NCBI GenBank assembly: GCA_040377305.1
Contig: JBEIPA010000022.1
Location: forward strand, 17,503 to 81,502
Length of the DNA: 64,000 nt
Source: Flavobacteriales bacterium
GTDB lineage: Bacteria; Bacteroidota; Bacteroidia; Palsa-965
Direction of reading: 5' to 3'
Shown: piece by piece, positions 1,905 to 55,269 of the stretch
Position numbering within the stretch: position 1 is the stretch's first letter
Layout of the letters: every line of letters starts with the position of its first letter
The notes under the pieces: model-generated
The model's input: the letters and a program-made list of their open reading frames with translations, nothing else
What the model was told of the DNA's origin: nothing
Databases searched by the model: none
Position numbers and translations under genes: made by a program

Positions 1905-1994
1905 GGTGAGGTGGGTGAGAGGCCGATACCAGTAGTTTGCTAAACTGCCGTACGATGTAAAGTTGTACCGAGGGTTCGAATCCCTCCCTCACCG
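1905..1994 (+). tRNA. tRNA-Ser (anticodon GCT)
   Basis: Acceptor stem GGTGAGG/CCTCACC, anticodon arm GTAGT-TTGCTAA-ACTGC, long variable arm, T-arm GAGGGTTCGAATCCCTC, discriminator G. CCA not encoded. TAAATTTG promoter element upstream (~1869-1876). Confidence 0.96.
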
Positions 1995-2138
1995 CAACAC
2001 AATTCTCTAATGCCGCTAGCGATAGCGGCATTTTTTATTTGTTCGGACGGAGTCCGAACTTGTTCGAGCGAACGTTCGAGCAAATAAAAAATGAGAGCCT
2101 GCTTTTTCGCAGACGGCGGCATTAGAGAATTGTGTTGC
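1994..2138. repeat. MITE-like nested inverted-repeat element with 23-bp perfect terminal IRs
   Basis: GCAACACAATTCTCTAATGCCGC (1994-2016) is the exact reverse complement of 2116-2138. Inner 13-bp IR 2029-2041/2081-2093. Contains a terminator-like hairpin AATGCCGCTA-GCGA-TAGCGGCATT followed by Ts. Confidence 0.8.
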
Positions 2139-2233: not shown

Positions 2234-2998
2234 ATGCGTATCACATTCCTCGGCACCGGTACTTCAATGGGCGTTCCTGTTATCGGATGCGGCTGTGAAG
2301 TGTGTACGTCGACAGATCCACAAGACAATCGCTTACGTTGTTCTGTTCTCGTTGAACACAACAACCGGAAAATTGTAATCGACACCGGACCCGATTTTCG
2401 CCAGCAGATTCTTCGCGTAGGAGTGAAGCATCTCGACGCTGTTGTGTTTACACACGAGCACAAAGATCACATGGCCGGACTGGATGAAGTCCGTGCCTTC
2501 AATTTCTTCAACCAGGGCAAAGAAGTTCCCGTGTATGCAACTGAACATGTGCAACGCGCAATTCGCAGAGAGTACGCGTACATTTTCGAAACGCCTGCTT
2601 ATCCCGGGATTCCGAAAATCGATATTCGCACCATAGACGTTGCACCATTCAACGCAGAAGGAATCGAGCTGATACCGATCAAAGTATATCACCACTTACT
2701 TCCCGTTCTCGGTTTTCGAATGGGTGGATTCGTTTACATCACCGATGCGAATCGAATTGACGAAGAAGAAAGAAAAAAAGTCCGCGGCTGCGATGTACTC
2801 GTGTTAAACGCATTGCGTCGCGAGCCGCACATTTCTCATTTCACACTGCAGGAAGCAATCGATCTGGTTGCCGATCTCAAACCGAAGCAAGCGTACTTCA
2901 CGCACATCAGTCACCAGATGGGAAAACACGAAGATGTGGAAGCTGAGTTGCCGGAGAATATCCGGGTTGCGTATGATGGAATGCAAGTAAATCTTTAA
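2234..2998 (+). CDS. MBL-fold metallo-hydrolase (PhnP-like phosphodiesterase)
   Basis: MRITFLGTGTSMGVPVIGCGC, IDTGPDFRQQ, THEHKDH metal motif, THISH. Start moved to ATG 2234 because the ORF-track extension crosses repeat DNA. Confidence 0.92.
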   Translation: MRITFLGTGTSMGVPVIGCGCEVCTSTDPQDNRLRCSVLVEHNNRKIVIDTGPDFRQQILRVGVKHLDAVVFTHEHKDHMAGLDEVRAFNFFNQGKEVPVYATEHVQRAIRREYAYIFETPAYPGIPKIDIRTIDVAPFNAEGIELIPIKVYHHLLPVLGFRMGGFVYITDANRIDEEERKKVRGCDVLVLNALRREPHISHFTLQEAIDLVADLKPKQAYFTHISHQMGKHEDVEAELPENIRVAYDGMQVNL

Positions 2999-3013
2999 TT
3001 AATCCATATAAAA

Positions 3014-6000
3014 GTGAAGAGGATGTTAAGACAGTTTTTTTTGGTTATAACGGCAATTGTCATTGGTTCAGTTCAAATGAATGCGCAAGCACAGTTTTGG
3101 GGAACTACTTCGAAAGGCGGGGAGTACGGTGCCGGAACAATATTCAGAACGGATGGGACAGGAAACAATCCTGTCGTGTCGCATTCGTTTTTCCAGATCG
3201 AAGGTCATCAGCCTCATTATGCTAAACTGTTAGAAGGTACAGATGGAAAGTTGTACGGCGTCACCAACTACAAAGGGAAATTTGATTTGGGTGTACTCTA
3301 TCAGTATGATCCCGTAACCGGGGTATATGTAAACAAATTTGACTTCGACGGTGTGTTGAACGGGGCTCATCCTCAAGGTTCGTTGATGCAGGCTACGGAT
3401 GGTTTAATTTATGGTATGACTTGGGGCGGCGGAAGTTTTGGATTAGGCGTCCTTTTTCGTTTTGACCCTGTAACCGGAATCTTCACAAAACTTATTGATT
3501 TCAGTGGAACGGCAAATGGTGCAAATCCAAGAGGCCACTTGCTACAGGCTTCCGATGGAATGATGTATGGCGTAACTCAGGGTGGGGGGACAGTAGGCGC
3601 AGGCGTTCTGTTCAGATTTAATCCAGTTACCGCAGTATTGACTGTCCAAACGAATTTTATGGGAATTTCAAATGGATCTCAACCACTCAGCGGATTGATT
3701 CAGGCTCTCGATGGAATGTTATACGGTGTTACATGCAACGGAGGCACCTACAACGACGGAGTGCTTTTTCAGTTTAATCCCGTTACCAGCGTGTATTTTA
3801 AGATGAGAGATTTTGCGGCACCAAGTCATGGAGAGGCACCCCAGGCTACGTTGGTACAGCTGCCCAATGGAAGGTTTTACGGAACGGCAACAACGGGTGG
3901 CGGATTGGGCTCAGGTTGTATCTATGAATTTAGTCTTGTAGATTCTTCTATCACTATCAGGGCAAACTTCACGAGCGGGTTGAACGGAAGTGGTCCTAAA
4001 ACAGCTTTGCTTTTAGCAAGCGATGGTATGATGTATGGAACTGCCGTTTCGGGAGGCTTAGGGGCACAGGGAACACTCTTCCGTTTTGACCCGACGACAT
4101 TTGCACTTACAAACTTGAGGAACTTCACTACCGGTGCATCGGGTTGCGGACCGTATGGATACTTGATGCAGGCAACAAATGGATTGTTGTATGGACTCAC
4201 AGTCGATGGAGGAAGCGTACTCAATCATAATGGAGTGATGTATTCTTATAATATCTCAACTTCGACGTACACCAAAATCCTGGATTTCGGCCAGGCTCCC
4301 ACCGGCAATTCTCCGGAGCGTGGATTGATGACAGCGTCGAACGGAAAATTTTATGGAATGGCGCGACTTGGCGGAAGGTTCTATAATCACGGTGTAATTT
4401 ATGAGTACGATGCAGCCACAAATGTATTTGATACCATCAAAAATTTTGACGATGTGCTTTCGGGCAGGGATCCCCAAGGTCTGCTAACAGAATCGTACGA
4501 CGGATTTTTGTACGGTGTAACGCGACAAGGAGGTGTAAATAGTTTTGGTGTTTTGTTTCAGATTGATCCGGTAACGCACGCATTCGTCAAGAAACACGAC
4601 TTTTCAGCTTCAACGGGCATTGCACCTTCTGGTTCTCTTGTAGTAGGTGCGGATAACTTGCTTTACGGTGTTGCGGGATCCGGAGGTGCAAACAATCAAG
4701 GGGCTCTTTTCCGTTATGATCCGGCTACTTCAGTTTATTCGCTTATATACAGTTTCAGTACTGCAGTATCAGGCCGCGACCCTTTGGGTTCATTGTGTCT
4801 CGCACCAGACGGATTTTTTTATGGAGCAACCAATGGCGGTGGGGCCAATGGCCTCGGAACAATTTACCGCTTCAATCCGATAACACTTGCGCTTACAGTA
4901 GTGTACCATTTCTCTACCGGTTCAGGTGGATATGGGGAAGTAGATCATTTGATCCCATCCCAAAATGGGAAAATGTACGGAATGACTAATTCGGGCGGAC
5001 TGAACAACATGGGTGTCATTTTTAGTTTTAATCCTGTAACGCTTACCTACACTCCGGAATTCCATTTTGACGGCGTTGCTCATGGTGCTTATCCTAATGG
5101 AAGTTTAATGGAAGCTTCGGACAACAATCTTTACGGAATGACCGCGCGCGGAGGAACCTTGGACTACGGAACGATGTTCAGGTTTGACCCTGTGTCCGGA
5201 ATCTGCACGAGATTAACTGACTTCACTGGTCTTAACGGACAATCACCCCGGTTCTCTTCGCTGCTGGAGGCTCCGGTTAATATTCAGTTGAGTGTTAGTG
5301 ATACATTTTATTGTCCGGGCGATACATTCACTATTGGTTATACATTATCCGGCGCATTTAATAGTGGTAACGTCTTCACGGCGCAGTTATCGGATGGCAA
5401 CGGTTCGTTCTTCCAACCAATTACAATCGGAGCAATCACATCCTCTGTTCCCGGAAGCCTCTTGTGTACGTTGCCTGCGAATAGCCTGCACGGAACGGGT
5501 TATCGAATCCGGATTTCATCGTCGACACCTTTACTGAGTGGTGCCGATAACGGATTTGATCTTACCATTTCAAATCCGTTGACAGTAACGGTATCTGATT
5601 CAGTAATTTGTTTAGGCGATACTGCCGGAATATTTGCTTCGGGAATGGATAGCTACTCCTGGTTACCCATAGCATCAACTTCAGATTCGGTGTTCGTTAT
5701 GCCGTCAGTTTACACGCAATACACTTTAACTGCGACGGATTCTTCAACGGGATGCGTATTGCACGATACTGTTGGTATTGTAGTCAATCAGCTGCCTAAT
5801 GTTATGGTAGCTGCTAACGACACCACGTTATGTATTTATGACAGCGTGCTTCTGGTTGGGTCAGGAGCAGACACTTATTTGTGGCCCGCATTTTCTTTTT
5901 CAGGCGATTCGCTGGTGGATGCGCCTGTTGTTACAACAGTTTATCTGCTTCTGGGCACAGATACCAACGGTTGCGTCGATTCTGCGCAGATCTCGGTACA

Positions 6001-7486
6001 GATTCTATCACTTCCGGTGATCAATGTTTCTGCTAGTGACACTTCGCTTTGCCAGGGCCAATCTGTAACTCTCTTTGCATCCGGTGGTCACGACTATTCT
6101 TGGTTACCAGGGAATGACACAACAACGCAAGTGACCGATACATTGTTAACGACTGTGACTTATTCAGTGAGTGGGTCTGATACCATCACGGGTTGTAGTA
6201 GTCTGTCGGTGCTTACAATCGTAGTTTTCAGTATTCCACAGCTAAGCGCAACAATTGATAATGTTGCAGGATGCAACCAGTCTAATGGCAGTCTGACCGG
6301 TGCTGTAATTAACGGAACACCTCCTTATTCAACTGAATGGACTCCAGGTAACGTTACAACGTTGAACTATTCAGGAATCGCTTTTGGAAGTTACGTTTTG
6401 GTAGTGAATGATTCTGTTGGCTGTACAGATACACTTACGATTGCATTAGGGGATTCCTGTGCATTTGTCTGGCCGGGTGATGCGAATGAAGACGGGACTG
6501 CAGACAATCTCGATATTCTTGCCATTGGAATTGCGAACGATTCAACAGGTGTTGCGCGCGTGAATCCAACCACAGTTTGGATTGGACAAGATGCTATTGA
6601 CTGGAATCAGAATTTCGCTTCTGGTGTTAATTTCAAATATGCCGATTGTGATGGAAACGGATTGGTAGAACCTGCCGACACAACTGCGGTTATTCTTAAT
6701 TATGGTCTTACGCACATCATGCGAAGTAGTAATCCAGCGTGGCAGGTGAGCGCACCGGAACTTTCTGTAGTGATTTCTGATGATACAATCGGTTCCGGAA
6801 TGGCAGCATTTATGGACATATACCTGGGATCTGCGTCGACAGTCAGCGATAGCACGTACGGTGTGGCATTCACGATCAACTTCGATCCATATCTTATTGA
6901 TCAAACTTCACTGAATATCGACATGTCGGGTTCATGGATAGATTCACAAGGCAACATGATTGGTGTCCTACTTAATTCAACGCAGTTTCCCGGAACTGCA
7001 CAGATCGGAATTACGCGACTGAATCACACAGATACTTCTGGCTATGGATTTCTATGTAGGATTTATTTCGAAACCACGGATTCATTAACAGGCACGGGGA
7101 CAAGTGCACTTTCGTTTATCAGCCTGAGCAATCCAGTATTGCAGAGTAGTTCTCAGATTTTGCTGCCGGTTAATGCGGCACTTGATTCGATGTTTATTAT
7201 CGATAGCTTAGTCTATGTTGGTGTTCCTGAAACGAACTTGCCCTCAGTAAACATCTATCCTAACCCTACATCTGGAGAATCATTCGTGGTTTTCCCTTCG
7301 GAATACAATGGACAGCAGCTACAGCTCAAGATATATGATCCTTCAGGTCGGGTTGTATTTGCGAATTCAGTGATTGCTGGTCAATCCAACGTGCTTTTCG
7401 CTGATGGATTTGCTTCAGGTATTTATCTCGTAGAAGCTGTTTTTTCAGACAATACACGGGCAGTTGTGCGATGGATCATCGAATAA
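3014..7486 (+). CDS. Large T9SS-secreted protein: 14 GloVer-type beta-propeller repeats, Ig/SprB-like repeats, dockerin-like and cohesin-like modules, type A CTD
   Basis: Signal peptide; 14 units of DGxLYGxTxxGG...GVLFxFDP; VWPGDANEDG...ADCDGNG Ca-binding pair; C-terminal IYPNPT...SGIYLV. Confidence 0.85.
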   Translation: MKRMLRQFFLVITAIVIGSVQMNAQAQFWGTTSKGGEYGAGTIFRTDGTGNNPVVSHSFFQIEGHQPHYAKLLEGTDGKLYGVTNYKGKFDLGVLYQYDPVTGVYVNKFDFDGVLNGAHPQGSLMQATDGLIYGMTWGGGSFGLGVLFRFDPVTGIFTKLIDFSGTANGANPRGHLLQASDGMMYGVTQGGGTVGAGVLFRFNPVTAVLTVQTNFMGISNGSQPLSGLIQALDGMLYGVTCNGGTYNDGVLFQFNPVTSVYFKMRDFAAPSHGEAPQATLVQLPNGRFYGTATTGGGLGSGCIYEFSLVDSSITIRANFTSGLNGSGPKTALLLASDGMMYGTAVSGGLGAQGTLFRFDPTTFALTNLRNFTTGASGCGPYGYLMQATNGLLYGLTVDGGSVLNHNGVMYSYNISTSTYTKILDFGQAPTGNSPERGLMTASNGKFYGMARLGGRFYNHGVIYEYDAATNVFDTIKNFDDVLSGRDPQGLLTESYDGFLYGVTRQGGVNSFGVLFQIDPVTHAFVKKHDFSASTGIAPSGSLVVGADNLLYGVAGSGGANNQGALFRYDPATSVYSLIYSFSTAVSGRDPLGSLCLAPDGFFYGATNGGGANGLGTIYRFNPITLALTVVYHFSTGSGGYGEVDHLIPSQNGKMYGMTNSGGLNNMGVIFSFNPVTLTYTPEFHFDGVAHGAYPNGSLMEASDNNLYGMTARGGTLDYGTMFRFDPVSGICTRLTDFTGLNGQSPRFSSLLEAPVNIQLSVSDTFYCPGDTFTIGYTLSGAFNSGNVFTAQLSDGNGSFFQPITIGAITSSVPGSLLCTLPANSLHGTGYRIRISSSTPLLSGADNGFDLTISNPLTVTVSDSVICLGDTAGIFASGMDSYSWLPIASTSDSVFVMPSVYTQYTLTATDSSTGCVLHDTVGIVVNQLPNVMVAANDTTLCIYDSVLLVGSGADTYLWPAFSFSGDSLVDAPVVTTVYLLLGTDTNGCVDSAQISVQILSLPVINVSASDTSLCQGQSVTLFASGGHDYSWLPGNDTTTQVTDTLLTTVTYSVSGSDTITGCSSLSVLTIVVFSIPQLSATIDNVAGCNQSNGSLTGAVINGTPPYSTEWTPGNVTTLNYSGIAFGSYVLVVNDSVGCTDTLTIALGDSCAFVWPGDANEDGTADNLDILAIGIANDSTGVARVNPTTVWIGQDAIDWNQNFASGVNFKYADCDGNGLVEPADTTAVILNYGLTHIMRSSNPAWQVSAPELSVVISDDTIGSGMAAFMDIYLGSASTVSDSTYGVAFTINFDPYLIDQTSLNIDMSGSWIDSQGNMIGVLLNSTQFPGTAQIGITRLNHTDTSGYGFLCRIYFETTDSLTGTGTSALSFISLSNPVLQSSSQILLPVNAALDSMFIIDSLVYVGVPETNLPSVNIYPNPTSGESFVVFPSEYNGQQLQLKIYDPSGRVVFANSVIAGQSNVLFADGFASGIYLVEAVFSDNTRAVVRWIIE

Positions 7487-7503
7487 CAATAGTAGAAGTA
7501 AAG

Positions 7504-7764
7504 CACCGATGCGAATCGAATTGACGAGGAAGAAAGAAAAAAGTTCGCGGCTGCGATGTACTCGTGTTAAACGCATTGCGCCGCGAGCCTCACATTTCTC
7601 ATTTCACACTGCAGGAAGCAATCGATCTTGTGGCCGATCTCAAACCGAAGCAAGCGTACTTCACGCACATCAGTCACCAGATGGGAAAACATGCCGACGT
7701 TTCAAAAGAACTTCCTTCCAATATTTTCCTTGCACACGATGGATTAACCATTGAAGTGAACTGA
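7504..7764 (+). pseudogene. Orphan second copy of the 3' end of the MBL hydrolase gene
   Basis: About 190 bp nearly identical to 2740-2930, with a 1-nt deletion in an A run, then an alternative C-terminus ADVSKELPSNIFLAHDGLTIEVN*. Confidence 0.9.
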
Positions 7765-8335: not shown

Positions 8336-8668
8336 CTAAGCGGCTTCGTCCATCAGCACAATGTCGTTCACCACGATTTCTGTGTTGGTGCGTTTCTGTC
8401 CGAGTTTGTCAACCCATGAACGCTGCATGAGTCGTCCGCTTACACCTACTTTTCTTCCTTTCTGAAGATATTGTTCAACCACGTCCGCTTGTTTTTCCCA
8501 CGCAACCATGTTAAACCAGTGCACGTTGCTTTGTTTTTGTCCTTCCATGCTGGTTGTGTACGAAACGTGAGCGAGTGAGAACCGCGCTACTTTCTTTCCT
8601 GTTGTTGTTGCTTTTACTTCCGGATTCATTCCGAGTTTCCCGATGATCTGTACGTTGTTCGCTTGCAT
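8336..8668 (-). CDS. ssb: Single-stranded DNA-binding protein (short form)
   Basis: NNVQIIGKLGMNPEV...HWFNMVAWEKQA...LQKGRKVGVSGRL...TEIVV OB fold; no acidic C-terminal tail. Confidence 0.9.
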   Translation of the reverse strand: MQANNVQIIGKLGMNPEVKATTTGKKVARFSLAHVSYTTSMEGQKQSNVHWFNMVAWEKQADVVEQYLQKGRKVGVSGRLMQRSWVDKLGQKRTNTEIVVNDIVLMDEAA

Positions 8669-8959: not shown

Positions 8960-9078
8960 AAAAACACCCTGCAGGAGTTAAACGCTTGCAGGGTTAAGTA
9001 AGAAAAACACCCTGCAGGAGTTAAACGCTTGCAGGGTTAAGTGAGAAAAACACCCTGCAGGAGTTAAACGCTGGGTTA
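8960..9078. repeat. Three tandem 43-bp REP-like palindromic units
   Basis: CACCCTGCAGGAGTTAAACGCTTGCAGGGT begins at 8965, 9008 and 9051; the third copy is truncated. Confidence 0.9.
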
Positions 9079-9093
9079 TAAAATCCTGTTGCA

Positions 9094-19050: not shown

Positions 19051-20970
19051 TTACTGTACCACAACACGTGTAGTTGCAGTTGATTCACCAGTTGTAACAG
19101 TGATCAGATAAACACCAGCTTCGAGGTTGTATGTGCTCATTTGGATGTTGTTTGAACCTGAGTTCATGGTGTATTGCTGTGATGAAACTGTTTCACCAAG
19201 CATGTTCACCAGGTTAACAGTTACTTTCTCGCTGTTATTAAGTGTGATATTTACATTCAACACATCAGTCGCCGGGTTCGGATATGCTCCGATTGATCCG
19301 AATGATGCTGCAGCTTCTTTCACGCCAACAGGCAATGTAAATTCTGATTCATCAAAATCAACATCACTGATGTAGTAGTGATCGAATGGAGTAGTGGTGT
19401 TGTGCGAATTGTCGCGATCCACTGAGTTAGTTGATGGAACACTATATGTGCTGCCACTAATCAATGCAAGATTGGAGTTGTAGTGCCAGTATGCATCATC
19501 GGAGAATGTGAACTGTTTCTTCGCTGTCTTCATCATAGTAGTCCAGTCAACACCCACACCATACATGTTCGGGTATGCGTTCTCTCCACCTGCAATTGCA
19601 GGATCAGTATCAACCCACATGTAGAAGATATGATCGCGGCCTGGGCTTACAGAAGCCTGCAAACGCGCATCCAGATCATAAGCAGCAGAACCATCAGAGA
19701 ATGGCGACTGTGTAGTTGTTGCACTAGTGAGCAAGGAATCAATCAGGACAGCGTCCCAGGTGTTTGCTCCTGTTGTGTAAACATCATAGATGTAATGTGT
19801 AGTAACACCGTTCGGAACCGCGAAGAAGCTCAGTGAATCGTTGTTATCAGAGAAACCGCTTTCAATCGTGCAGATGATGTGAAGCTGGTTATTGTGATCT
19901 ACAACAATATCCGAACCATTGCTCTGAGAGAACCATGGCTTAACGTCGCCATTCGAATTATAGGCGAATAGGTGGTCGTTGATTACCGGAATTGAAGTGA
20001 AGTCGAATGGAGCCCAGGCTGCTGACCAGTTGTCGCCACCATCTGTTGTGCTGTAAACAATAGGGTTGAAGCTGCGTGTTGGAATTGTAGAAGCAGCTGC
20101 TTGTACTCCGAAGAATACACAGTAACCATTCTGCCCGTTTGCGGAGAAGGAGAGGTGCGTGTTCTGGTAAGCGTCGGTTGCGCCTGCACCATCTGTGTGG
20201 AATGTAGGCTTAATCGAATCCATAGTCCACGTAACCTGAGTTCCATCCCAGCTTCCTTTGTTTAAAGAAGCACCACGGTAGGCACTGCCTGCAACGTCAT
20301 CGTCGGCGAGAAGTGCACCTGTTACCCATACTGTGCTGTCGTTGTATGAAGCCATGTCAATACGTGGGAATGAGTTCAGACTTGCTGATGCAACGCCCGT
20401 ACCTGTGTTTCCGAAATTCGCTGCAATCGGAGCAGCCTGAAGGTAATAACCACCCCAGCCAGATCCAGGAGTATATGGACCTGCAATTGCCCACCATGCA
20501 TTTGAAATGTTGGTGTTTCCAACTCCGTTAAGAATCGCTCCGGAAGGGTAACGGAACAATTGAACTCCATCGTTGTCGAAGTACATAGAATCCCATGAAA
20601 CTCCATCATTCGATGTCCATGTGCCCTGGATGTAACCGTTATTAACGCCGGCTGGAGACCAGTCTGTTGAAATACGGTGCGTGAACAGTGCAATTCCAAG
20701 AGCCTGATTCGACGTCATACAATTCGACTGCGATACAAGCAACGTTAAAGCATTGCGTGAACTCGAAAAGTGAGTTCCTGTCATTTGTGCAGATGGGTTC
20801 TGGCTATTACGCTGTGTGTGCGCATCAGCGTAGAAACTGCTTTGTGCAGGATCTTCAGAACGACTGCCATCAAGTTTTAAATCGGGTTTGAGCGGCGTCA
20901 GCTGGGGCGACTGTGCGAATGCCACAAATGCTGAAGTGATGCCGATTGTTAAGAGTAATCCTTTTTTCAT
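19051..20970 (-). CDS. T9SS type A CTD secreted protein (twin 1)
   Basis: Signal peptide, YSTTDGGDNW BNR-like motif, AYPNPATD...AGVYLI CTD; paralog of 21056-22975. Confidence 0.85.
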   Translation of the reverse strand: MKKGLLLTIGITSAFVAFAQSPQLTPLKPDLKLDGSRSEDPAQSSFYADAHTQRNSQNPSAQMTGTHFSSSRNALTLLVSQSNCMTSNQALGIALFTHRISTDWSPAGVNNGYIQGTWTSNDGVSWDSMYFDNDGVQLFRYPSGAILNGVGNTNISNAWWAIAGPYTPGSGWGGYYLQAAPIAANFGNTGTGVASASLNSFPRIDMASYNDSTVWVTGALLADDDVAGSAYRGASLNKGSWDGTQVTWTMDSIKPTFHTDGAGATDAYQNTHLSFSANGQNGYCVFFGVQAAASTIPTRSFNPIVYSTTDGGDNWSAAWAPFDFTSIPVINDHLFAYNSNGDVKPWFSQSNGSDIVVDHNNQLHIICTIESGFSDNNDSLSFFAVPNGVTTHYIYDVYTTGANTWDAVLIDSLLTSATTTQSPFSDGSAAYDLDARLQASVSPGRDHIFYMWVDTDPAIAGGENAYPNMYGVGVDWTTMMKTAKKQFTFSDDAYWHYNSNLALISGSTYSVPSTNSVDRDNSHNTTTPFDHYYISDVDFDESEFTLPVGVKEAAASFGSIGAYPNPATDVLNVNITLNNSEKVTVNLVNMLGETVSSQQYTMNSGSNNIQMSTYNLEAGVYLITVTTGESTATTRVVVQ

Positions 20971-20999
20971 GTCGTTTTCGTTGATGAGACTCTAAGTTA

Positions 21000-21036
21000 A
21001 AAAGAAACCCCGACAATCCGTAGATGTCGGGGTTCT
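21000..21036 (-). terminator. Intrinsic terminator between the twin genes
   Basis: AACCCCGACA-loop-TGTCGGGGTT with an A-rich flank. Confidence 0.7.
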
Positions 21037-21055
21037 GTATTGTTAACAGGAACGA

Positions 21056-22975
21056 TTACTGAACTACAACGCGTGTAGTAGCAGTAGAAGTACCAGTTGA
21101 TACTGTGATCAGGTAAACACCCGCTTCCAGGTTGTACGTGCTCATTGAAAGGTTGTTAACACCTGCATTGAGGCTGTGCTGCTGTGAAGAAACTGTTTCT
21201 CCAAGAACGTTTGTCATCGCAACAGTTACTTTTTCGTTGTTGTTCAAAGTAACGTTGAGGTTCAACACGTCAGTAGCAGGGTTTGGATAAGCCGCAACTG
21301 TTCCGAAAGAAGCTACTGCCTCACCGATTCCGATAGCGAGCGTGAACTCAGACTCATCGAAAGTTACGTTATCAAGGTAGTAGTGATCGAACGTAGTAAG
21401 TGTGTTGTGTGAGTTGTCGCGATCTGTAGAGTTAGATGAAGGCACTTTGTAAGTGCTTCCGCTCACAAGCGCAAGGTTTGAGTTGTAGTGCCAGTATGCA
21501 TCATCAGAGAATGTAAACTGTTTAGTAGCAGTCTTCGTCTGAGCTGTCCAGTCGATACCAACACCAAAAAGGTTAGGGTATGCGTTTTCTCCACCAGCGA
21601 TTGCAGGATCTGTATCAGCCCAGAGGTAGAAAATGTGGTCACGGCTAGGGCTAACAGAAGCCTGAATACGTGCATCAAGGTCATAAGCAGCAGAACCGTC
21701 AGAGAAAGGAGACTGGGTTGTTGTTGCGCTTGTCTTCAAAGAATCAATAAGCGTTCCAGACCATGAGTTAGTTGCTTGTGCAGTTGTGTGTACATCCCAG
21801 ATGTAGTGAACGTTGTCGTTACGTGTCCAGGTGTATCCGAGTGAATCATCATCATCAGAAGAACCCCACTCAACTGTGCAGATGATGTGAAGGTTACCGT
21901 TGTTGTCAACTACCATGTCAGAACCATTGCTCATAGAGAACCAAGGCTTAACAGAACCGCCAACAGCAGCAATTGCAATTGGAGCTGAAGCAAATACTGT
22001 AGAGTAATCGTAAGGAGCCCAAACTGAAGACCAGGTTGTACCACCGTCAGTTGTTGAGTAAACGATAGGCTGGAAACCGCGAGTCTCAGGAGTTGTAGCT
22101 GAAGCCTGAACACCGAAGAACACTGCGTAACCAACTTGTCCGTTTGCAGAGAATGCAAGGTGAGTCATTGTATAGCAATCAGTTGCACCTGCACCATCAA
22201 GGTGGAAGCTAGGCTTGATCGAATCCCATGTCCATGAAACACTTGTTCCGTTCCATTTTCCACGGTTAAGAACAGTACCACGGTATGCGCTTCCGCCAAC
22301 ATCATCATCAGCAAGAAGTTCGCCTGTTACCCATACTGTAGAATCGCTATAAGAAGCCATATCGATACGTGGGAACGAGTTAACGTTGTTAGAATAAGTT
22401 CCGGTTCCTGTGTTACCAACGTTCGGTGCGAACATTGCGTCATTCAGGAAATAACCATCCCAGGTAGATCCGCTCGTGTAAGGACCACCAACAACCATCG
22501 CAGCATTAGCAACGTTTGTGTTGCCAGTACCGTTCAGAATTGCACCAGAAGGGTAACGGAAAAGTTCTGCTCCGTTGTTATCCCAGTACATTGAATCCCA
22601 CTGCGTGCCATTCCACCAGCTAACTTCAATATATCCGCTGTTTACACCAGCAACTGACCAATCAGCTGACATACGGTGTGTGAAAGCTGCAATTCCCAAT
22701 GCCTGGTTCGCAGTCATACAGTTCGACTGAGAAACAAGAAGCGTAAGCGCATTGTATGAGCTAGAGAACATCTGACCAGAGATCTGTGTAGTTGGACCTC
22801 CACCGTTACGCTGATTAGAAGCTTCTGCGTAGAAGTTTACTTCTTGTTCTGTGTCAATTTGAGATTTGCTCGTAAGCGTCAGGTCGGGCTTCTGCACACC
22901 ATTTGCTTTCGGTGCCTGAGCGACCATAGCAAACGAAGCGGAGACTCCGATCACAAACAGTAATCCTTTTTTCAT
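21056..22975 (-). CDS. T9SS type A CTD secreted protein (twin 2)
   Basis: Same architecture and same length (639 aa) as 19051-20970. Confidence 0.85.
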   Translation of the reverse strand: MKKGLLFVIGVSASFAMVAQAPKANGVQKPDLTLTSKSQIDTEQEVNFYAEASNQRNGGGPTTQISGQMFSSSYNALTLLVSQSNCMTANQALGIAAFTHRMSADWSVAGVNSGYIEVSWWNGTQWDSMYWDNNGAELFRYPSGAILNGTGNTNVANAAMVVGGPYTSGSTWDGYFLNDAMFAPNVGNTGTGTYSNNVNSFPRIDMASYSDSTVWVTGELLADDDVGGSAYRGTVLNRGKWNGTSVSWTWDSIKPSFHLDGAGATDCYTMTHLAFSANGQVGYAVFFGVQASATTPETRGFQPIVYSTTDGGTTWSSVWAPYDYSTVFASAPIAIAAVGGSVKPWFSMSNGSDMVVDNNGNLHIICTVEWGSSDDDDSLGYTWTRNDNVHYIWDVHTTAQATNSWSGTLIDSLKTSATTTQSPFSDGSAAYDLDARIQASVSPSRDHIFYLWADTDPAIAGGENAYPNLFGVGIDWTAQTKTATKQFTFSDDAYWHYNSNLALVSGSTYKVPSSNSTDRDNSHNTLTTFDHYYLDNVTFDESEFTLAIGIGEAVASFGTVAAYPNPATDVLNLNVTLNNNEKVTVAMTNVLGETVSSQQHSLNAGVNNLSMSTYNLEAGVYLITVSTGTSTATTRVVVQ

Positions 22976-25282: not shown

Positions 25283-25319
25283 AAAATCCCTCCGCAATAC
25301 CAGCGGGGGGATTTTTTTG
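25283..25319 (+). terminator. rpsA terminator
   Basis: AAAATCCCTCCGC...GCGGGGGGATTTTTTT. Confidence 0.75.
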
Positions 25320-25329
25320 TGCCCTCAGT

Positions 25330-25444
25330 TCAACGGTCCAAGGGTTAAGCCCTTGGAGGGTATGTCCCAAATCAACCCTGCAAGCGTTTAACTCCTGCAG
25401 GGTGTCATCAACTCAACAGTCCAAGGGTTAAGCCCTTGGAGGGT
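25330..25444. repeat. REP cluster (BIME-like)
   Basis: TCCAAGGGTTAAGCCCTTGGA at 25337-25357 and 25420-25440 flank an inverted copy of the 8960-9078 unit (25374-25405). Confidence 0.85.
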
Positions 25445-36086: not shown

Positions 36087-39000
36087 TCAAATTCTAACCC
36101 CAACAATCGTCACATCATCCACCTGTTCCAAATCGCCTCTCCAGTTTTCGAATGTTTCCAGAATGATTTTCTTCTGATCATCCATTGACTCATGCGAAAT
36201 TGAAACGAGCAATTCCTTCAACGGCTTATACTTGAATTTTTTGCCTTTAGGACCACCGAATTGATCGGGCATACCGTCGGTCAGTGCGTAAACGCAGTCG
36301 CCTTTCTGCAGTTGGAATTCCTGCTCAGTGAAAGGAACGTTGTCTTTGTCATGTTTTCCAACCGGCATCTTATCTGCCAGCAATTCGATCATTTCCTTGT
36401 TGCGAACGATCCATACCGGATTATTTGCTCCGGCGAAAGTGAGTCGCTTATTTGCAAAGTCAAAACTGATGAGGCTGCAATCCATTCCGTCTTTCCCGCC
36501 GTCGGTGCTTCCATCTTTCGAAAGGGTATTTATTATCCGGCTTCTCGTAAAGTTCAGAATATGGGCTGGTGAAGTCTGATGCTCAAAATCTACCGCTTTC
36601 TCGAGGCAGGAAATATTCAACATGCTCATGATTGCTCCCGGAACGCCGTGACCTGTGCTATCCGCGGTTACTAAAGCAAATTGATTGTTGGATAGGAGAG
36701 AAGCCCAGTAGAAATCACCACTCACAATATCTTTTGGACGGAAGAATACGAAATGTTCAGGCAAATGAGTCCGCAATACATTATCGCTTGCCAGTAACGC
36801 ACGCTGAATTCGTTGCGCGTAATTGATGCTATCGATAATGTCCTTCTGTTTTTCTTCTACAAGATGTTTTTGTTCTACAACTTCCGCGGTTCTTTCTTCT
36901 ACGGTTTGTTCCAGTTCCTTTTGACGAACACGAAGTTGTCTCGTTCTGAATCTGAAGAATCCAACCACCGAAGCGATGATGAATAACACAGTGCCACTTC
37001 TGAACCAGGTTGTTTCCCACCACGGCGGGCGAACTTCGAATGCATATTCAAAAGGTTCACTCCACACACCACTTTGATTCATCGCTTTTACTTTGAACAC
37101 GTATTCACCGGGAGGAACGTTTCCGTAAGGTGCTTCTGTGCGTTCAGTAATTGAACTCCAGAATTCGTCAAGGTTTTCGAGCTTGTATTGGTACTTGATG
37201 TGGTTACGGCTTTGCATGTGTACGCCGATGTAGTTGAACGTAATGTTGCTATTGTCGTACGGTAAGCTTAAATGTTGCGGCAAATTATACCAAGGAGAGA
37301 TACTGTCAAATTCAATTCCACTCAGGAGAATGCCGTTCGAAAGAATGGAGTCTTTGGAAACACCACTAATAGTTTCGTTCCCTGTTGAGTCCATCGTAAG
37401 TGCCCCAAGACTAGTCCATGCAATGTTTTCTCCATAGAGTTTTAGACTTGAAACATTTACCGAAGGCGCAATTAAATCTGCTTGATCACCTTGTGGATCG
37501 TAGCAAGTAAGAAAATCTGTTCCCCACCAAATTCGTCCCTTGCTATCTTGTAAAACAGAATTGCGACGACAGTTTAAACCTAAAAAACCATCATTATAAC
37601 CGTAATTATAAAAGAGTGCCTCTTTTATGGGATTGTAATTCTCATTTTTTTCAGCTAACCTTATTAGCTGTACCCGACCAACTTTACTTAATCCTTTTCG
37701 TGTACCGAACCAAATATTTCCATCTACATCCTGCACCATGTTTAGTACCGCATTATTTGACAGGCCTTCTTTCTCTGTAAAATTGGTAAAGGATTTCCCA
37801 TCGTAACGGCACACGCCCCCGCCATTAGTGCCGAACCAAATCCCGACTTCTCCAGTCGGGACGGTTTTATCTTCTAAACCACAATAAACAAAATTATTTG
37901 ACAGGCCTTCTTCCTCCGTAAAATTGGTAAATGATTTCCCATCGTAGCGAGAGACTCCGCCCTGAGTGCCGAACCAAAAGTTTCCGGTTTTATCTTCCAA
38001 AATACTCCAAACAGTATTATTTGACAAACCTTCTTTCTCTGTAAACTTCGTGAAGGATTTCCCATCGTAACGACACACGCCTCCGCCGTAAGTGCCGAAC
38101 CAGAGGTTTCCCGTTTTATCTTCTAAAATACTCGAAACAAAATTATCTGTCAGACCTTCTTTATCTGTAAAGTTCGTGAACGATTTCCCATCGTAACGAC
38201 ACACGCCTCCGCCATTAGTGCCGAACCAAAGGTTTCCCGTTTTATCTTGTAAAATACTCAAAACAAAATTATTTGTCAGACCTTCTTTATCTGTAAAGTT
38301 CGTGAAGGACTTCCCATCGTAACGGCACACGCCCCCGCCATAAGTGCCGAACCAAAGGTTTCCGGTTTTATCTTCTAGCATACTCACAACAAGATTATTG
38401 CCCAGCCCTTCATTCTCGGTAATATTGGTAAAGGATTTCCCATCGTAGCGAGAGACGCCGCTTCCAGCTGTGCCGAACCAAAGGTTTCCGGTTTTATCTT
38501 CTAAAATACTCTGAACAAGATTATTGCCCAGCCCTTCATTATCGGTAAAATTGGTAAAGGATTTAACAAGTTTTCCATCTTCTCTTTTAAGGTCCTGTTG
38601 ATCGCTTAAAGGAATTTTTTCGCCGCGTTCAATCGCTTCCACGCGATTCCCATCGTAACGGCATATGCCCCCGCCATATGTGCCAAACCAAAGGTTTCCG
38701 ATTTTATCTTCTACAATTGCACTCACAAAATTATTTGACAGACCCTCTTTCTGTGTAAAGTTCGCGAAGGATTCCCCATCGTAACGGCACACGCCCCCGC
38801 CATAAGTGCTGAACCAAAGGTTTCCCGTTTTATCTTCTAAAATTGAGGCAACAACATTATTTGACAGGCCTTCTTTCTCGGTAAAATTGGTAAATGATTT
38901 CCCGTCGTAGCGACAGGCCCCGCTATCAGTGCCGAACCAAAGGTTTCCCGTTTTATCTTCTAAAATACTCCACACAACATTATTTGACAGGCCTTGTTTC

Positions 39001-39791
39001 TCTGTAAAATTGGTAAAGGTTTTCCCATTGTAACGACACACGCCCCCGCCATCAGTGCCGAACCAAAGGTTTCCCGTTTTATCTTCTAAAATTGCATTAA
39101 CAACATTATTTGACAGGCCTTCTTTCTCTGTAAAGTTGGTAAAGGTTTTCCCATCGTAGCGACAGACCCCACCTTTAGTGCCGAACCAAAGGTTCCCCGT
39201 TTTATCTTCTAAAATACTCCAAACAAAATTATTTGACAGACCTTCTTTCTCTGTAAAATTCGTAAAGGATTTCCCGTCGTAACGAGACACGCCCCAGCCA
39301 TAAGTGCCGAACCAGAGGTTTCCGGTTTTATCCTGTAACATTCCACGCACGTTATTATTCTTTAAACCTTGCAGCGTTTTATAAAAACAAAAATTAGCGG
39401 GGTTAACATCTTTCGACGCGGCATCTTTGGCAATAACTACTTCAGGAATTCCTGCCGGCACAACTTTACCTTTTGCAGGAACGGTCTTAGGTGTGGAGAA
39501 AGTATCTGTTCCGGGCGTGCATACTCTTGGTGTTCCAACCGGAATAACTGTTGGCTCTCCGGCAATGTGAACATTCAGATTTGTCGGAATCACTGTCGGC
39601 TCTCCAGCGGGAATAACAGTAGGCTCTCCAGCGGGGATTGTAATCGGTTTTGCAAAACTATCCGGATTCATCCAAACACCTTGCGAGTAGGTAATTTTTA
39701 ACCCGTGTGTTGATGTTTGTTCTTCCTGATCTGAGTTACAAGATGTAAGCAGGGAAATGATGGCGCAAAGAATGAATGCAGAACGGATCAT
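36087..39791 (-). CDS. Sensor phosphatase: 14 two-component-regulator propeller repeats, YYY domain, TM helix, SpoIIE/PP2C domain
   Basis: EDKTGNLWFGT repeats; YQYKLENLD; PPWWETTWF before a TM helix; PKDIVSGDFYW, ADSTGHGVPGA, DGMD, TDG, QVDDVT. Confidence 0.92.
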   Translation of the reverse strand: MIRSAFILCAIISLLTSCNSDQEEQTSTHGLKITYSQGVWMNPDSFAKPITIPAGEPTVIPAGEPTVIPTNLNVHIAGEPTVIPVGTPRVCTPGTDTFSTPKTVPAKGKVVPAGIPEVVIAKDAASKDVNPANFCFYKTLQGLKNNNVRGMLQDKTGNLWFGTYGWGVSRYDGKSFTNFTEKEGLSNNFVWSILEDKTGNLWFGTKGGVCRYDGKTFTNFTEKEGLSNNVVNAILEDKTGNLWFGTDGGGVCRYNGKTFTNFTEKQGLSNNVVWSILEDKTGNLWFGTDSGACRYDGKSFTNFTEKEGLSNNVVASILEDKTGNLWFSTYGGGVCRYDGESFANFTQKEGLSNNFVSAIVEDKIGNLWFGTYGGGICRYDGNRVEAIERGEKIPLSDQQDLKREDGKLVKSFTNFTDNEGLGNNLVQSILEDKTGNLWFGTAGSGVSRYDGKSFTNITENEGLGNNLVVSMLEDKTGNLWFGTYGGGVCRYDGKSFTNFTDKEGLTNNFVLSILQDKTGNLWFGTNGGGVCRYDGKSFTNFTDKEGLTDNFVSSILEDKTGNLWFGTYGGGVCRYDGKSFTKFTEKEGLSNNTVWSILEDKTGNFWFGTQGGVSRYDGKSFTNFTEEEGLSNNFVYCGLEDKTVPTGEVGIWFGTNGGGVCRYDGKSFTNFTEKEGLSNNAVLNMVQDVDGNIWFGTRKGLSKVGRVQLIRLAEKNENYNPIKEALFYNYGYNDGFLGLNCRRNSVLQDSKGRIWWGTDFLTCYDPQGDQADLIAPSVNVSSLKLYGENIAWTSLGALTMDSTGNETISGVSKDSILSNGILLSGIEFDSISPWYNLPQHLSLPYDNSNITFNYIGVHMQSRNHIKYQYKLENLDEFWSSITERTEAPYGNVPPGEYVFKVKAMNQSGVWSEPFEYAFEVRPPWWETTWFRSGTVLFIIASVVGFFRFRTRQLRVRQKELEQTVEERTAEVVEQKHLVEEKQKDIIDSINYAQRIQRALLASDNVLRTHLPEHFVFFRPKDIVSGDFYWASLLSNNQFALVTADSTGHGVPGAIMSMLNISCLEKAVDFEHQTSPAHILNFTRSRIINTLSKDGSTDGGKDGMDCSLISFDFANKRLTFAGANNPVWIVRNKEMIELLADKMPVGKHDKDNVPFTEQEFQLQKGDCVYALTDGMPDQFGGPKGKKFKYKPLKELLVSISHESMDDQKKIILETFENWRGDLEQVDDVTIVGVRI
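37700..39360. repeat. Intragenic near-identical ~130-bp tandem repeats
   Basis: Recurrent GTGCCGAACCAAAGGTTTCCcGTTTTATCTTCTAAAAT...ATTATTTGACAGGCCTTCTTTCTCTGTAAA units. Confidence 0.9.
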
Positions 39792-48831: not shown

Positions 48832-50043
48832 ATGTCAACGCTTCAAGGCAAAAAAGTCATCATCGGAATCACCGGCGGAATCGCAGCCTACAAGGTTCCG
48901 CTGCTCATCCGTCTGCTCATTAAAGCAGGAGCGGAAGTGCAAGTAATGATGACTCCATCTGCTCATGAGTTTGTAACACCGTTGACACTTTCTACACTTT
49001 CGAAGAAACCTGTTCTTTCAAAGTTTACCGAAGGAAACGAAGGAGTCTGGAACAATCACGTGGATCTTGGCTTGTGGGCCGATCTGATGGTGATTTGTCC
49101 GGCGACTGCGAATACGATTTCTGATCTCGTTCACGGCAAAAGCGAAAACATTCTTCAGGCGGTTTTTCTTTCTGCACGTTGTCCTGTTGCGGTTGCGCCT
49201 GCGATGGATCTCGATATGTACCAGCATCCTGCTACTAAAGCGAATCTGGATACATTGCGCGAACGTGGTACGCTCATCATTCCTCCGGGAACAGGCGAGC
49301 TAGCCAGCGGATTATCCGGAGAAGGTCGCATGGCTGAGCCGGAAGAAATATATGCGTTCATCGAGACAACTTTGGTGCATGCGAACCGTCTTTCAGGAAA
49401 GAAGATACTCATCACGGCCGGACCTACATACGAACCTATTGACGCAGTGCGTTTCATTGGCAATTTCTCTTCGGGAAAAATGGGAATTGCGATTGCAAAC
49501 GTTTTAGCGCGTCAAGGTGCCGAAGTTACACTCGTGTGTGGTCCTAGTAAGGAAAAGACTTCTGACGCGAATGTGAAGCGTATTGACGTTACCACCGCTG
49601 CGCAGATGTACGATGCATGTGTTAGCGCATTTCCTTCCTGCGATGCCGCAATTATGACGGCAGCCGTTGCCGATTTCCGTCCGAAGAATATTGCCGATAA
49701 GAAGATCAAGAAAGAAGACGGAGGAATGAGTCAGGTCGAGTTGGAAGAAACACAGGACATTCTCGCGTCATTAGGTAAGCTGAAGAAAGCTGGTCAGGTT
49801 CTTGCAGGATTTGCGTTGGAAACGGATAACGAATCTGCAAATGCAAAATCTAAACTCGAGCGTAAAAACCTCGATTTTATCGTGATGAATTCCTTGCGCG
49901 ATCAAGGTGCCGGATTCGGCACAGATACCAATAAGATTACCGTCTTTACGCGTGACGGAAAAACGCATAACTTTGATTTGAAACCGAAAAACGAGGTTGC
50001 GCAGGACATTGCTGATGTGCTGTTCACTTATCTACACAAATGA
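48832..50043 (+). CDS. coaBC: Phosphopantothenoylcysteine decarboxylase / phosphopantothenate--cysteine ligase
   Basis: GITGGIAAYK, PATAN, APAMD, ITAGPTYEPIDAVRFIGNFSSGKMG, GFALET. Confidence 0.97.
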   Translation: MSTLQGKKVIIGITGGIAAYKVPLLIRLLIKAGAEVQVMMTPSAHEFVTPLTLSTLSKKPVLSKFTEGNEGVWNNHVDLGLWADLMVICPATANTISDLVHGKSENILQAVFLSARCPVAVAPAMDLDMYQHPATKANLDTLRERGTLIIPPGTGELASGLSGEGRMAEPEEIYAFIETTLVHANRLSGKKILITAGPTYEPIDAVRFIGNFSSGKMGIAIANVLARQGAEVTLVCGPSKEKTSDANVKRIDVTTAAQMYDACVSAFPSCDAAIMTAAVADFRPKNIADKKIKKEDGGMSQVELEETQDILASLGKLKKAGQVLAGFALETDNESANAKSKLERKNLDFIVMNSLRDQGAGFGTDTNKITVFTRDGKTHNFDLKPKNEVAQDIADVLFTYLHK

Positions 50044-50942
50044 AAAAAGTCATTGTTTTCGCTTTAGTGCTGTTGTCTGCGATTCGTATGAATGCGCAGG
50101 AGCTGAATTGCATGGTGCAGGTGGTTTCTCCGCAAATTCAGGGAACAACTGAGAAAAGGATTTTGGAGAATCTCCAGAAAGCCGTTTTCGAGTTCATGAA
50201 TAACACGAAATGGACCAGCGACATTTATTCGATTGAGGAGCGTATCAGCTGCAACATGATGATCAACGTTGTGGAAAAGTTGGGTACGGATGAATGGAAA
50301 GCCACAATTCAGCTTCAGTCAACGCGCCCTGCATTCAAATCATCTTACAATACGGTTCTACTCAACCATAACGACGCAGACTTCAATTTCCGTTATGTCG
50401 AGTTCCAGCCAATGGATTTTACAATCAACCAACACTTCAGTAACCTTACCTCGGTACTCGCTTATTATGCATACGTCATTATCGCAATGGATTACGACTC
50501 GTATTCTTTGAAAGGTGGTCAACCATGGTGGTCGAAAGCACAAACGATTGTGGCCAACGCACAGAACGCTCCGGAGAAAGGCTGGAAGTCCTCCGAAAGC
50601 ACAAAAAATCGGTACTGGTTCGTGGAGAACATGCTACAGCCGTTGTATGAGCCGCTTCGTGTTTGCATGTATAAGTATCATCGTCTTGGTTTCGACTTAA
50701 TGTACCAGGATGTTGAAGCAGGTCGCGCTGCATGTCTCGAAGCATTGCAGGGATTGGAAGCTATTCACAATCAGCGTCCGCTTTCCTTTCCTATGCAGGT
50801 GTTCTTCAACGCGAAGACAGATGAAATTGTGAAACTGTTTTCAGGTGGAACCACCGAGGAGAAAGGGAAGATTGTGCCGTTGTTACAGAAGATCGATCCG
50901 GGTCACGGTATACAATACCAGAAAATCAATCAGGCCCAATAA
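50040..50942 (+). CDS. porD: DUF4835 family protein (T9SS component PorD)
   Basis: AQELNC, EFMNNTKWT, NLTSVLAYYAY, YHRLGFD, FFNAKTDEI; follows coaBC. Confidence 0.85.
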   Translation: MKKVIVFALVLLSAIRMNAQELNCMVQVVSPQIQGTTEKRILENLQKAVFEFMNNTKWTSDIYSIEERISCNMMINVVEKLGTDEWKATIQLQSTRPAFKSSYNTVLLNHNDADFNFRYVEFQPMDFTINQHFSNLTSVLAYYAYVIIAMDYDSYSLKGGQPWWSKAQTIVANAQNAPEKGWKSSESTKNRYWFVENMLQPLYEPLRVCMYKYHRLGFDLMYQDVEAGRAACLEALQGLEAIHNQRPLSFPMQVFFNAKTDEIVKLFSGGTTEEKGKIVPLLQKIDPGHGIQYQKINQAQ

Positions 50943-51025
50943 AACCTTCAAGGTTTTAAGTTGATCAAATGCAATCTCGTTAATTTTCGGGTATAGTCAT
51001 GATTGTGATCAAACCTTAAAGGTTT
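50941..51025. mobile_element. Short non-coding element bounded by AAACCTTnAAGGTTT palindromes
   Basis: AAAACCTTCAAGGTTTT (50941-50957) and AAACCTTAAAGGTTT (51011-51025) sit between two copies of the porD 3' end. Confidence 0.55.
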
Positions 51026-51034
51026 AACCGGAGT

Positions 51035-51073
51035 CACGGTATCCAGTACCAGAAGATTAACCAGGCCCAGTAA
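51035..51073 (+). pseudogene. Displaced duplicate of the last 13 codons of porD
   Basis: Encodes HGIQYQKINQAQ* like 50904-50942, with 6 synonymous differences. Confidence 0.85.
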
Positions 51074-55030: not shown

Positions 55031-55213
55031 CGGTTTTTGGTTGGTGTATTACAAAATTAACAAAATACATGACAGTGCCAAACGATAAGTAGCTTATTTA
55101 CAGCGGTTTCGTCGAATTGGTGTAGATACTTAGTTTGGGGTTAATTAATTGAAAATCAACAAAAAGTGAAAGAATTTCAAGCCTCAAAGGGGATATCTGC
55201 GATATGACAACTT

Positions 55214-55244
55214 AACCCTGCAAGGGTTTAACCCTTGCAGGGTT
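55214..55244. repeat. REP palindrome (same family as 8960-9078)
   Basis: AACCCTGCAAGGGTT-T-AACCCTTGCAGGGTT perfect palindrome. Confidence 0.85.
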
Positions 55245-55269
55245 GTTGTACTTTTGCCCCGGCAGCCTT

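What the first reader, a model, noticed from the sequence alone, without database searches (positions are those of the whole stretch)
2740..7764. 4.5-kb secreted-protein gene inserted by a '3'-end swap' of its host gene, with no integrase
Seen: about 190 bp of the MBL hydrolase 3' region (2740-2930) recur at 7504-7693, just after the large T9SS gene. By hand alignment the copies differ by 7 substitutions, all at synonymous third positions (gaa/gag, gtc/gtt, cgt/cgc, ccg/cct, ctg/ctt, gtt/gtg, cac/cat), plus one A deletion in the orphan copy. They then end in two homologous but different tails (EDVEAELPENIRVAYDGMQVNL vs ADVSKELPSNIFLAHDGLTIEVN). Inference: a synonymous-only pattern means both ends were once functional alleles under selection. 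Incoming DNA carrying its own allele of the gene end plus cargo would have recombined in, restoring the gene and displacing the old end. This resembles att-site restoration by integrative elements, but no recombinase is present. The same signature occurs at porD, so this may be a general cargo-capture route in this lineage.
Basis: partly seen in the sequence, partly recalled or inferred. Interest (0 to 1): 0.72.

Follow-up and report, generated by a model that had tools for sequence, protein, structure and literature searches.

The report
Displaced gene end behind captured gene
In a Bacteroidota genome a large secreted-protein gene sits between a housekeeping gene and a spare, differently spelled copy of that gene's end, a scar likely left when DNA from a related strain recombined in by homology on one side only; about 16 such scars occur in this genome, and some recur at the same genes in related species.

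Summary
In detail: 190 bp of the hydrolase 3' region recur behind the 4.5-kb GloVer/T9SS gene, with 7 synonymous and 0 amino-acid changes, one lost A, and two different tails. Contigs of the probable source run carry the cargo at flank depth and show no empty site. The copies are two formerly functional alleles. No recombinase or att-like site was found. The scar is general: 21 of 3,615 genes have a 3'-end copy downstream against 1 upstream (16 kept on inspection), porD among them. It recurs in the genus and once in another family. At one gene, three species hold the same toxin-antitoxin pair with orphans of different length, each resembling its own species. Best reading: homologous recombination at one end plus a non-homologous join at the other, close to published 'insertion with long target duplication' and rhs/T6SS C-terminal displacement. 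This scan noted the pattern before in other genomes.

The parts
2234..2998 (+). Host gene: MBL-fold metallo-hydrolase, 254 aa (PRK02113/PhnP-like, below the curated cut-offs; far below the class B beta-lactamase cut-off)
2740..2929 (+). Expressed copy of the duplicated core (96% identical to the orphan core)
2930..2998 (+). Tail 1 (EDVEAELPENIRVAYDGMQVNL), present C-terminus
3023..7486 (+). Cargo: 1487-aa protein with 14 GloVer repeats (TIGR03803) and a T9SS type A C-terminal signal; weak sequence likeness to Kelch beta-propellers; alternative GTG start at 3014
7487..7503 (.). 17-bp spacer ending at the non-homologous junction 7503/7504; 7498-7503 matches 3 of 6 bases of the gene at 2734-2739
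7504..7692 (+). Orphan core, starts inside the coding sequence, one A lost
7693..7764 (+). Tail 2 (ADVSKELPSNIFLAHDGLTIEVN) with its own stop codon
7785..8165 (-). 126-aa conserved hypothetical protein, convergent neighbour; directly behind the hydrolase in L031, G018, G019, G022
8336..8668 (-). ssb, the conserved right-hand neighbour of this slot in the genus
50898..50942 (+). Last 45 bp of porD (gene 50040-50942, NF052317), second scar in the window
50943..51027 (.). 85-bp gene-less insert bounded by short palindromes
51028..51073 (+). Orphan porD end, 6 synonymous changes, one extra base near its start

Best explanation
The locus holds two diverged alleles of the hydrolase end on either side of one cargo gene, and likely arose when DNA from a related strain, carrying its own gene end followed by the cargo, recombined by homology into the gene on the left and was joined without homology just behind the cargo to a point 260 bp inside the resident gene, stranding the old end. 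Shown: two alleles, one non-homologous junction, no recombinase or shared site, the same scar at about 16 genes and in relatives. Inferred: homology-facilitated illegitimate recombination after DNA uptake; the direction (upstream allele incoming); an earlier tail exchange at the conserved HISHQMGKH motif to explain a 96% core beside a 50% tail.
For: Synonymous-only divergence in a barely decayed orphan. Polarity: 21 of 3,615 genes have a 3'-end copy downstream, 1 upstream; mid-gene controls 3 and 4, none a new case. Duplication length is free (33-260 bp), targets share no motif (pair score 12.7 against 12.6 +/- 0.3 for random gene ends), nearest tyrosine recombinase on the same contig 37 kb or more away. 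Two mirror cases at 5' ends (C17:52759; hemC C7:18022) fit a process with no fixed site. Possible donors exist: G015 has the GH3 gene followed by the same RelB/ParE pair without an orphan, and G013 and G007 have icmF followed by the same RAYT cassette without one. At synonymous sites one close relative per locus matches the orphan 37 times and the expressed end 13 times over 7 loci (34:18 with the other ftsE relative; summed by hand, sites not independent). ComEC and DprA are encoded. The cargo has no match at E<=1e-80 in 34 other genomes of the order and is absent from the slot in L031.
Against: At this locus relatives do not mark the orphan as native: synonymous matches gene:orphan 4:4, 7:4, 3:4, 5:1; residues 5:2, 3:5, 4:2, 4:2. 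GH3 also gives no support (4:2, 3:3, 2:2, 2:2). The junction lies 0-65 bp behind a complete cargo gene in all nine co-oriented cases measured and no insert ends in a clear piece of the next gene, which a random join does not predict without later trimming or selection. Cargo codon use is only mildly atypical once amino-acid content is corrected (48th lowest of 482; the uncorrected 1.5th percentile was misleading). No donor with hydrolase end plus cargo was found (0 of 16 loci). ComEC and DprA also occur in 10 of 14 control genomes, so they do not show competence. No same-species strain was available.
Confidence: 0.52

Rival explanations
1. Same one-sided recombination, opposite direction: the cargo was already resident, and DNA from a cargo-free strain came in anchored on the right (126-aa gene/ssb side) and was joined just behind the cargo, bringing a random-length piece of its own hydrolase end. 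A clean double crossover would have deleted the cargo.
For: Explains why junctions hug the cargo stop while orphan length varies: GH3 orphans start 90, 231 and 128 bp before the stop, with junctions 8, 0 and 11 bp behind the toxin stop in G000, G007, G013. The RelB/ParE pair is present in all four genomes of the close clade. Tail 1 is closer to 3 of 4 nearest sequences.
Against: Synonymous sites at recG (10:1 with G015), icmF (7:1, 6:3, 5:3), ftsE (7:1 twice, 4:6 once) and mpl (3:0) favour a native orphan. No gain is evident, so fixation would be by drift.
Confidence: 0.22
2. Circle pop-in: a non-replicating circle of core + tail 1 + cargo, excised in a donor that already had the duplication, integrated by one homologous crossover (the model proposed for rhs tips).
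For: Gives the same geometry and explains a near-identical core beside an old tail; model read in PMC2935791 (passages). A crossover after the lost A would leave an open 255-codon gene, so pop-out is possible.
Against: No circle or empty site in X1 contigs and no excess cargo depth. At GH3 the three junctions differ in the target, so they were not copied from one donor. The first junction still needs a non-homologous join.
Confidence: 0.13
3. Remnant of an integrase-driven element that restored the gene end as e14 does at icd, with the integrase lost or acting in trans.
For: Geometry and size resemble icd/icdC (PMC13626634 passages). The genome encodes 7 tyrosine and 1 large serine recombinase matches.
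Against: Insert is one gene with 24- and 17-bp flanks; no dyad at the crossover (6 and 4 of 8, ordinary among 300 random 50-mers), no likeness to the genome's attC-like unit; 16 unrelated targets without a motif; three different crossover points in one gene.
Confidence: 0.06
4. Tandem duplication or tandem full-length paralogues with later decay, or an assembly chimera of two strains.
For: Deletion could trim both a second full gene and cargo-side junk to the present junction; some short hits in the genome are plain tandem repeats. The middle of the repeat is collapsed in the contigs.
Against: A drifting copy should hold about 13 amino-acid changes for half of the synonymous ones; it has none. 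Relatives have one copy. Depth is flat at 14-15 across flanks and cargo, and one contig runs from the first copy through the cargo into the second.
Confidence: 0.07

Closest known systems
Insertion with long target duplication (Nobusato et al. 2000, seen only as a reference; Furuta, Abe and Kobayashi 2010, PMC2853133, passages and sections 15 and 18 read)
   Same: Insert under 20 kb, direct repeats over 30 bp and of variable length, no mobile-element genes, repeats often spanning a stop or start so that the target gene stays intact, mostly in competent species.
   Different: Described for restriction-modification cargo; the repeats in its Table 2 are 96-100% alike and read as copies of the target. 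Here cargo is a secreted protein (elsewhere TA pairs, RAYT, small repeats, enzymes), and the two copies are diverged alleles at 75-98%.
C-terminal displacement at rhs and T6SS effector loci (PMC2935791 and PMC5361080, passages read)
   Same: A new 3' end replaces the old one, which is shunted downstream with a core fragment of variable length; one-sided homology-facilitated recombination or a circle is proposed.
   Different: Those are polymorphic toxins where the new tip is the payload and arrays build up. Here the targets are housekeeping genes (recG, asd, ftsE-like, mltG, lepB, lpxH-like, porD), the new end is nearly synonymous, and the payload is an unrelated gene behind the stop.
Homology-facilitated illegitimate recombination in Acinetobacter, Streptococcus pneumoniae, Pseudomonas stutzeri (primary papers not held; known here through passages of PMC5361080 and PMC2884548)
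   Same: One homologous anchor plus one non-homologous join; no dedicated recombinase.
   Different: From memory, laboratory products mostly delete recipient DNA; here the join lies inside the anchor gene and leaves its end. Not shown experimentally in this lineage.
Gene-end restoration by integrative elements: e14 at icd/icdC (PMC13626634, passages read)
   Same: Intact gene on the left, C-terminal pseudogene on the right, synonymous differences between them.
   Different: e14 is a 15-kb prophage with a fixed site; here there is no integrase, no fixed site and no element.
Minimal mobile elements of Neisseria (search listing only; definition recalled)
   Same: Variable gene content in a slot between conserved genes, exchanged by homologous recombination.
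   Different: Clean two-sided exchange leaves no orphan end.

Membership tests
Insertion with long target duplication | Direct repeats longer than 30 bp flank an insert under 20 kb | tested here: met
   260-bp homologous ends around 4.5 kb
Insertion with long target duplication | No other mobile-element genes | tested here: met
Insertion with long target duplication | Empty site in a related genome | tested here: inconclusive
   L031 (78% aa) has hydrolase then 126-aa gene with no cargo, but it is another species; no conspecific strain held
Insertion with long target duplication | Cargo includes restriction and modification genes (criterion i of PMC2853133) | tested here: not met
   GloVer/T9SS protein only
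C-terminal displacement (rhs/T6SS) | Orphan core fragment plus different tip downstream of an intact gene | tested here: met
C-terminal displacement (rhs/T6SS) | Host is a polymorphic toxin with toxin tip and immunity gene | tested here: not met
   host is an MBL-fold hydrolase
C-terminal displacement (rhs/T6SS) | The orphan is the former resident end | tested here: inconclusive
   mixed at this locus, favoured at four of six others
Homology-facilitated illegitimate recombination | One homologous anchor and one non-homologous join | tested here: met
   single junction 7503/7504 and an allele change in the gene; the left crossover cannot be placed
Homology-facilitated illegitimate recombination | Microhomology at the join | tested here: inconclusive
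   3 of 6 bases match before 7504; donor sequence beyond the join unknown
Homology-facilitated illegitimate recombination | RecA-dependent, follows DNA uptake | not testable with these tools
   ComEC and DprA present, which is not proof of competence
Integrative element with gene-end att site (e14/icd type) | Integrase in or beside the element | tested here: not met
   no PF00589 or PF07508 match on contig C22
Integrative element with gene-end att site (e14/icd type) | Fixed crossover site with dyad core | tested here: not met
Integron cassette | attC site behind the gene | tested here: not met
   flank scores 16 and 20 against a random mean of 17.5 and maximum of 28 with this genome's attC-like unit

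The most novel reading that the evidence does not exclude
The non-homologous join is aimed, not random: Bacteroidota have an integrase-free capture route in which a cut at the end of a complete unit (cargo stop region or the end hairpin of a small repeat, perhaps by a Y1/HUH enzyme) is joined into any nearby gene 3' region while homologous recombination finishes the other side. Hints: junctions 0-65 bp behind complete genes; three independent events at one gene with junctions 0-11 bp behind the toxin stop; 3 of the 16 scars end at the same hairpin of one 95-bp repeat family (3 of 27 genes that carry it at their stop against 13 of 3,588 others, P 2e-4; counts by eye, test); 10 Y1 transposase-like genes in the genome. 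The hydrolase junction itself has no such hairpin.
Probability: 0.15. Interest if true: 0.78.

Novelty: new variant of a known kind. Interest (0 to 1): 0.45.

Why it matters
How single accessory genes enter chromosomes without integrases or transposases is an open question. These scars are a countable, datable natural record of one-sided recombination: about 0.4% of genes here, at housekeeping targets, between alleles 75-98% alike, so across strain and species borders. Recurrence at the same genes (3 of 26 orthologous loci in relatives against 2 of 785 unselected genes) points to hot spots and makes direction and junction rules testable with population genomes. The mechanism class is published and this scan has met it in other phyla, which caps the surprise. 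The cargo's function is unknown.

Tried and rejected
Assembly artefact: not supported; runs X2 and X3 hold next to none of the stretch and say nothing. Close strains: none found; best relatives 77-82% aa among 40 genomes and 80 metagenome loci. Same scar at the hydrolase elsewhere: none in 109 loci, many too short to show it (the one hit was a low-complexity repeat). Donor with hydrolase end plus cargo: none in 16 loci; cargo homologues are 29-51% identical. Codon usage to orient the swap: weak (summed lnLR +6.6 or +2.2 toward the orphans over 106 codons, +0.35 or -0.55 here). Idea that the 126-aa gene came in with tail 2, because G015, G013 and G007 lack it: dropped, since L031 in the same clade has it in place at 74% over 46 residues (tree of 30 hydrolases, G032 left out for a parsing failure, FastTree supports only). 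Shared junction motif, dyad, attC, hairpin at 7503: none. Promoter and terminator scan: at chance level. Rows dropped from the 21 hits by eye before counting 16: C12:8876 (attC-like array), C50:66 (tandem unit), C11:77323 (33 bp identical), C49:31493 (0 syn/5 non), C14:119987 (33 bp); so 106 syn/48 non for the 16 is flattered, and the unfiltered figure is 109/65. icmF (C52) and C50:43930 appeared only under the looser scan. One G016 hit was a paralogue array and dropped. The C19 48-bp pair beside an integrase is a repeat element, not a gene end. Rates in own genome, genus and other families do not differ significantly (P 0.76 and 0.34), so 'specific to this lineage' is not shown. [quoted passage not shown]
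Full report
Observation. The hydrolase gene (2234-2998, MBL fold) is followed after 24 bp by one 1487-codon gene with 14 GloVer repeats and a T9SS signal, then after 17 bp by a copy of the hydrolase's last 260 bp. The first 190 bp are 96% alike, with seven synonymous changes, no amino-acid change and one lost A; the last 70 bp are two open tails about 50% alike. Seven of seven synonymous has P near 0.001 even if only one copy was free to drift, and pS is 0.17, so these are two alleles that were both under selection and met recently. Contigs of the probable source run reproduce both flanks and the cargo without mismatch at equal depth and show no empty site. They are not an independent sample and do not phase four of the seven differences.

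No dedicated machinery. The insert has no room for a recombinase; contig C22 has no tyrosine or large serine recombinase match. The crossover has no unusual dyad and the flanks do not resemble the genome's own attC-like unit. No hairpin stands out at the junction.

The scar is common in this genome. Using a simple ORF caller of my own and a 20-kb reach, 21 of 3,615 genes of 150 codons or more have a copy of their end downstream and 1 upstream; mid-gene controls gave 3 and 4, 5' controls 12 and 8, nearly all repeat elements or wrong starts. I kept 16 on inspection (dropped rows are listed under Tried and rejected). Hosts include recG, asd, mltG, porD, signal peptidase I, ftsE-, mpl- and lpxH-like genes. 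Inserts run from 34 bp to 15 kb: two RelB/ParE pairs, a second T9SS gene, a 2OG-Fe oxygenase, small palindromic repeats, and under looser settings a RAYT cassette behind icmF. Copies are 75-98% alike; the ftsE-like case has 13 synonymous and 0 other changes in 62 bp. Two mirror cases exist at 5' ends. Targets share no motif.

Relatives. In 1.17 Mb from same-genus genomes 2 of 785 genes show the scar (G011 pyrD, G016 DUF58 gene; a third hit was a paralogue array), and in 1.2 Mb from four other families 1 of 827 (G036 mutS2); these rates do not differ significantly from the window's genome. At orthologues of six scarred genes, 3 of 26 loci with a readable 3' end carry their own scar (three had under 250 bp downstream). 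The GH3 locus is the most telling: G000, G007 and G013 hold the same RelB/ParE pair between gene and orphan, the orphans begin 90, 231 and 128 bp before the stop, each resembles its own genome's allele, and the junctions lie 8, 0 and 11 bp behind the toxin stop; G015 has the pair without an orphan, G010 and G016 lack it there. These look like independent events with a free point in the gene and a tight point behind the cargo, which argues against a fixed att site and against copying of one old junction.

Direction. For the hydrolase, 22 of 24 same-genus genomes have one match; none of 34 genomes of the order has a close cargo homologue; L031, in the same clade, shows the slot without cargo. 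The cargo was therefore gained in this lineage. But tail 1, not tail 2, is nearer to three of the four closest sequences, and site-by-site matching is mixed. At recG, icmF, ftsE and mpl synonymous sites favour the orphan as native. With 19 residues and relatives at about 80% this cannot be settled. Any history needs two events, because a 96% core sits beside a 50% tail: an older tail exchange at the conserved HISHQMGKH stretch (59 identical bases, 2870-2928) and a recent one-sided join (inference).

Mechanism. I favour homology-facilitated illegitimate recombination with the upstream allele and cargo incoming (0.52), then the same process with the orphan incoming (0.22), circle pop-in (0.13), a decayed integrative element (0.06), duplication or artefact (0.07). 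The first two share the core claim: one homologous crossover, one non-homologous join, no dedicated recombinase. Unexplained by a random join: junctions lie 0-65 bp behind complete co-oriented genes (17 here; 41, 21, 8, 3, 65, 53 at other G000 loci; 0 and 11 in relatives), and three scars end at the same hairpin of one 95-bp repeat family that occurs some 55 times. Trimming by deletion, selection, the reversed direction or an aimed cut could each explain this.

Known systems. Furuta et al. (PMC2853133; passages, sections 15 and 18) describe insertions with long, variable target duplications, no mobile genes, repeats spanning stop codons, for restriction-modification cargo. Jackson et al. (PMC2935791; passages) and Kirchberger et al. 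(PMC5361080; passages) describe C-terminal displacement at toxin loci and propose circles or one-sided recombination. icd/icdC (PMC13626634; passages) gives the geometry with a prophage. PMC2884548 (passages) invokes homology-assisted illegitimate recombination for small variable segments. The locus works like these but fails their cargo or host criteria, hence 'new variant'. Earlier notes of this scan report the same pattern in other bacteria and archaea; they gave me the long-target-duplication lead and are not evidence. G012 is unpublished: it enters only as one row in the genus tallies, tail table and tree, and no claim depends on it.

Verdict. Real, well supported as a recombination scar, general rather than lineage-specific, direction open at this locus, mechanism class known. 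Interest 0.45.

Noticed in passing
G000:C19:50591-56685 and G000:C12:8311-10465: Arrays of short same-strand ORFs separated by 80-90-bp attC-like repeats (one folds at -39.6 kcal/mol); a tyrosine recombinase (PF00589 + PF13495) lies beside the C19 array. Likely an integron plus a second array.
   Followed up: partly
genome-wide, e.g. G000:C44:20061-20165, C1:9224-9338, C30:15837-16047: A 95-bp palindromic repeat family, 55 hits, often starting within 10 bp of a stop codon and often in facing pairs; four copies are followed directly by an orphan gene end.
   Followed up: partly
window 8960-9088, 25319-25444, 55201-55251: REP-like palindromes in tandem and dispersed copies; the genome has 10 Y1 transposase-like matches.
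   Followed up: no
window 1905-1995: tRNA-Ser(GCT) 240 bp upstream of the hydrolase, followed by a terminator-like hairpin; no displaced tRNA fragment came up in the window's repeat search.
   Followed up: partly
G000:C17:51289-52867 and G000:C7:17900-18100: Mirror scars: orphan 5' ends upstream of a glycosyltransferase-like gene (109 bp, 1.36-kb insert) and of a hemC-like gene (58 bp, 10 synonymous changes) (gene names from sequence likeness, recalled).
   Followed up: partly
G000:C6:61351-76767: Largest scar: 15-kb insert of about 19 small genes (several TIR-like by eye, a response regulator) between a 154-aa gene and its orphan end, with no integrase inside.
   Followed up: partly
window 19051-22975: Two tandem 639-aa T9SS-type paralogues, 70-76% alike in DNA, ordinary full-length duplication.
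   Followed up: no
window 36087-39791: Sensor-type protein with about ten 126-bp propeller repeats and a C-terminal phosphatase-like domain (by eye).
   Followed up: no
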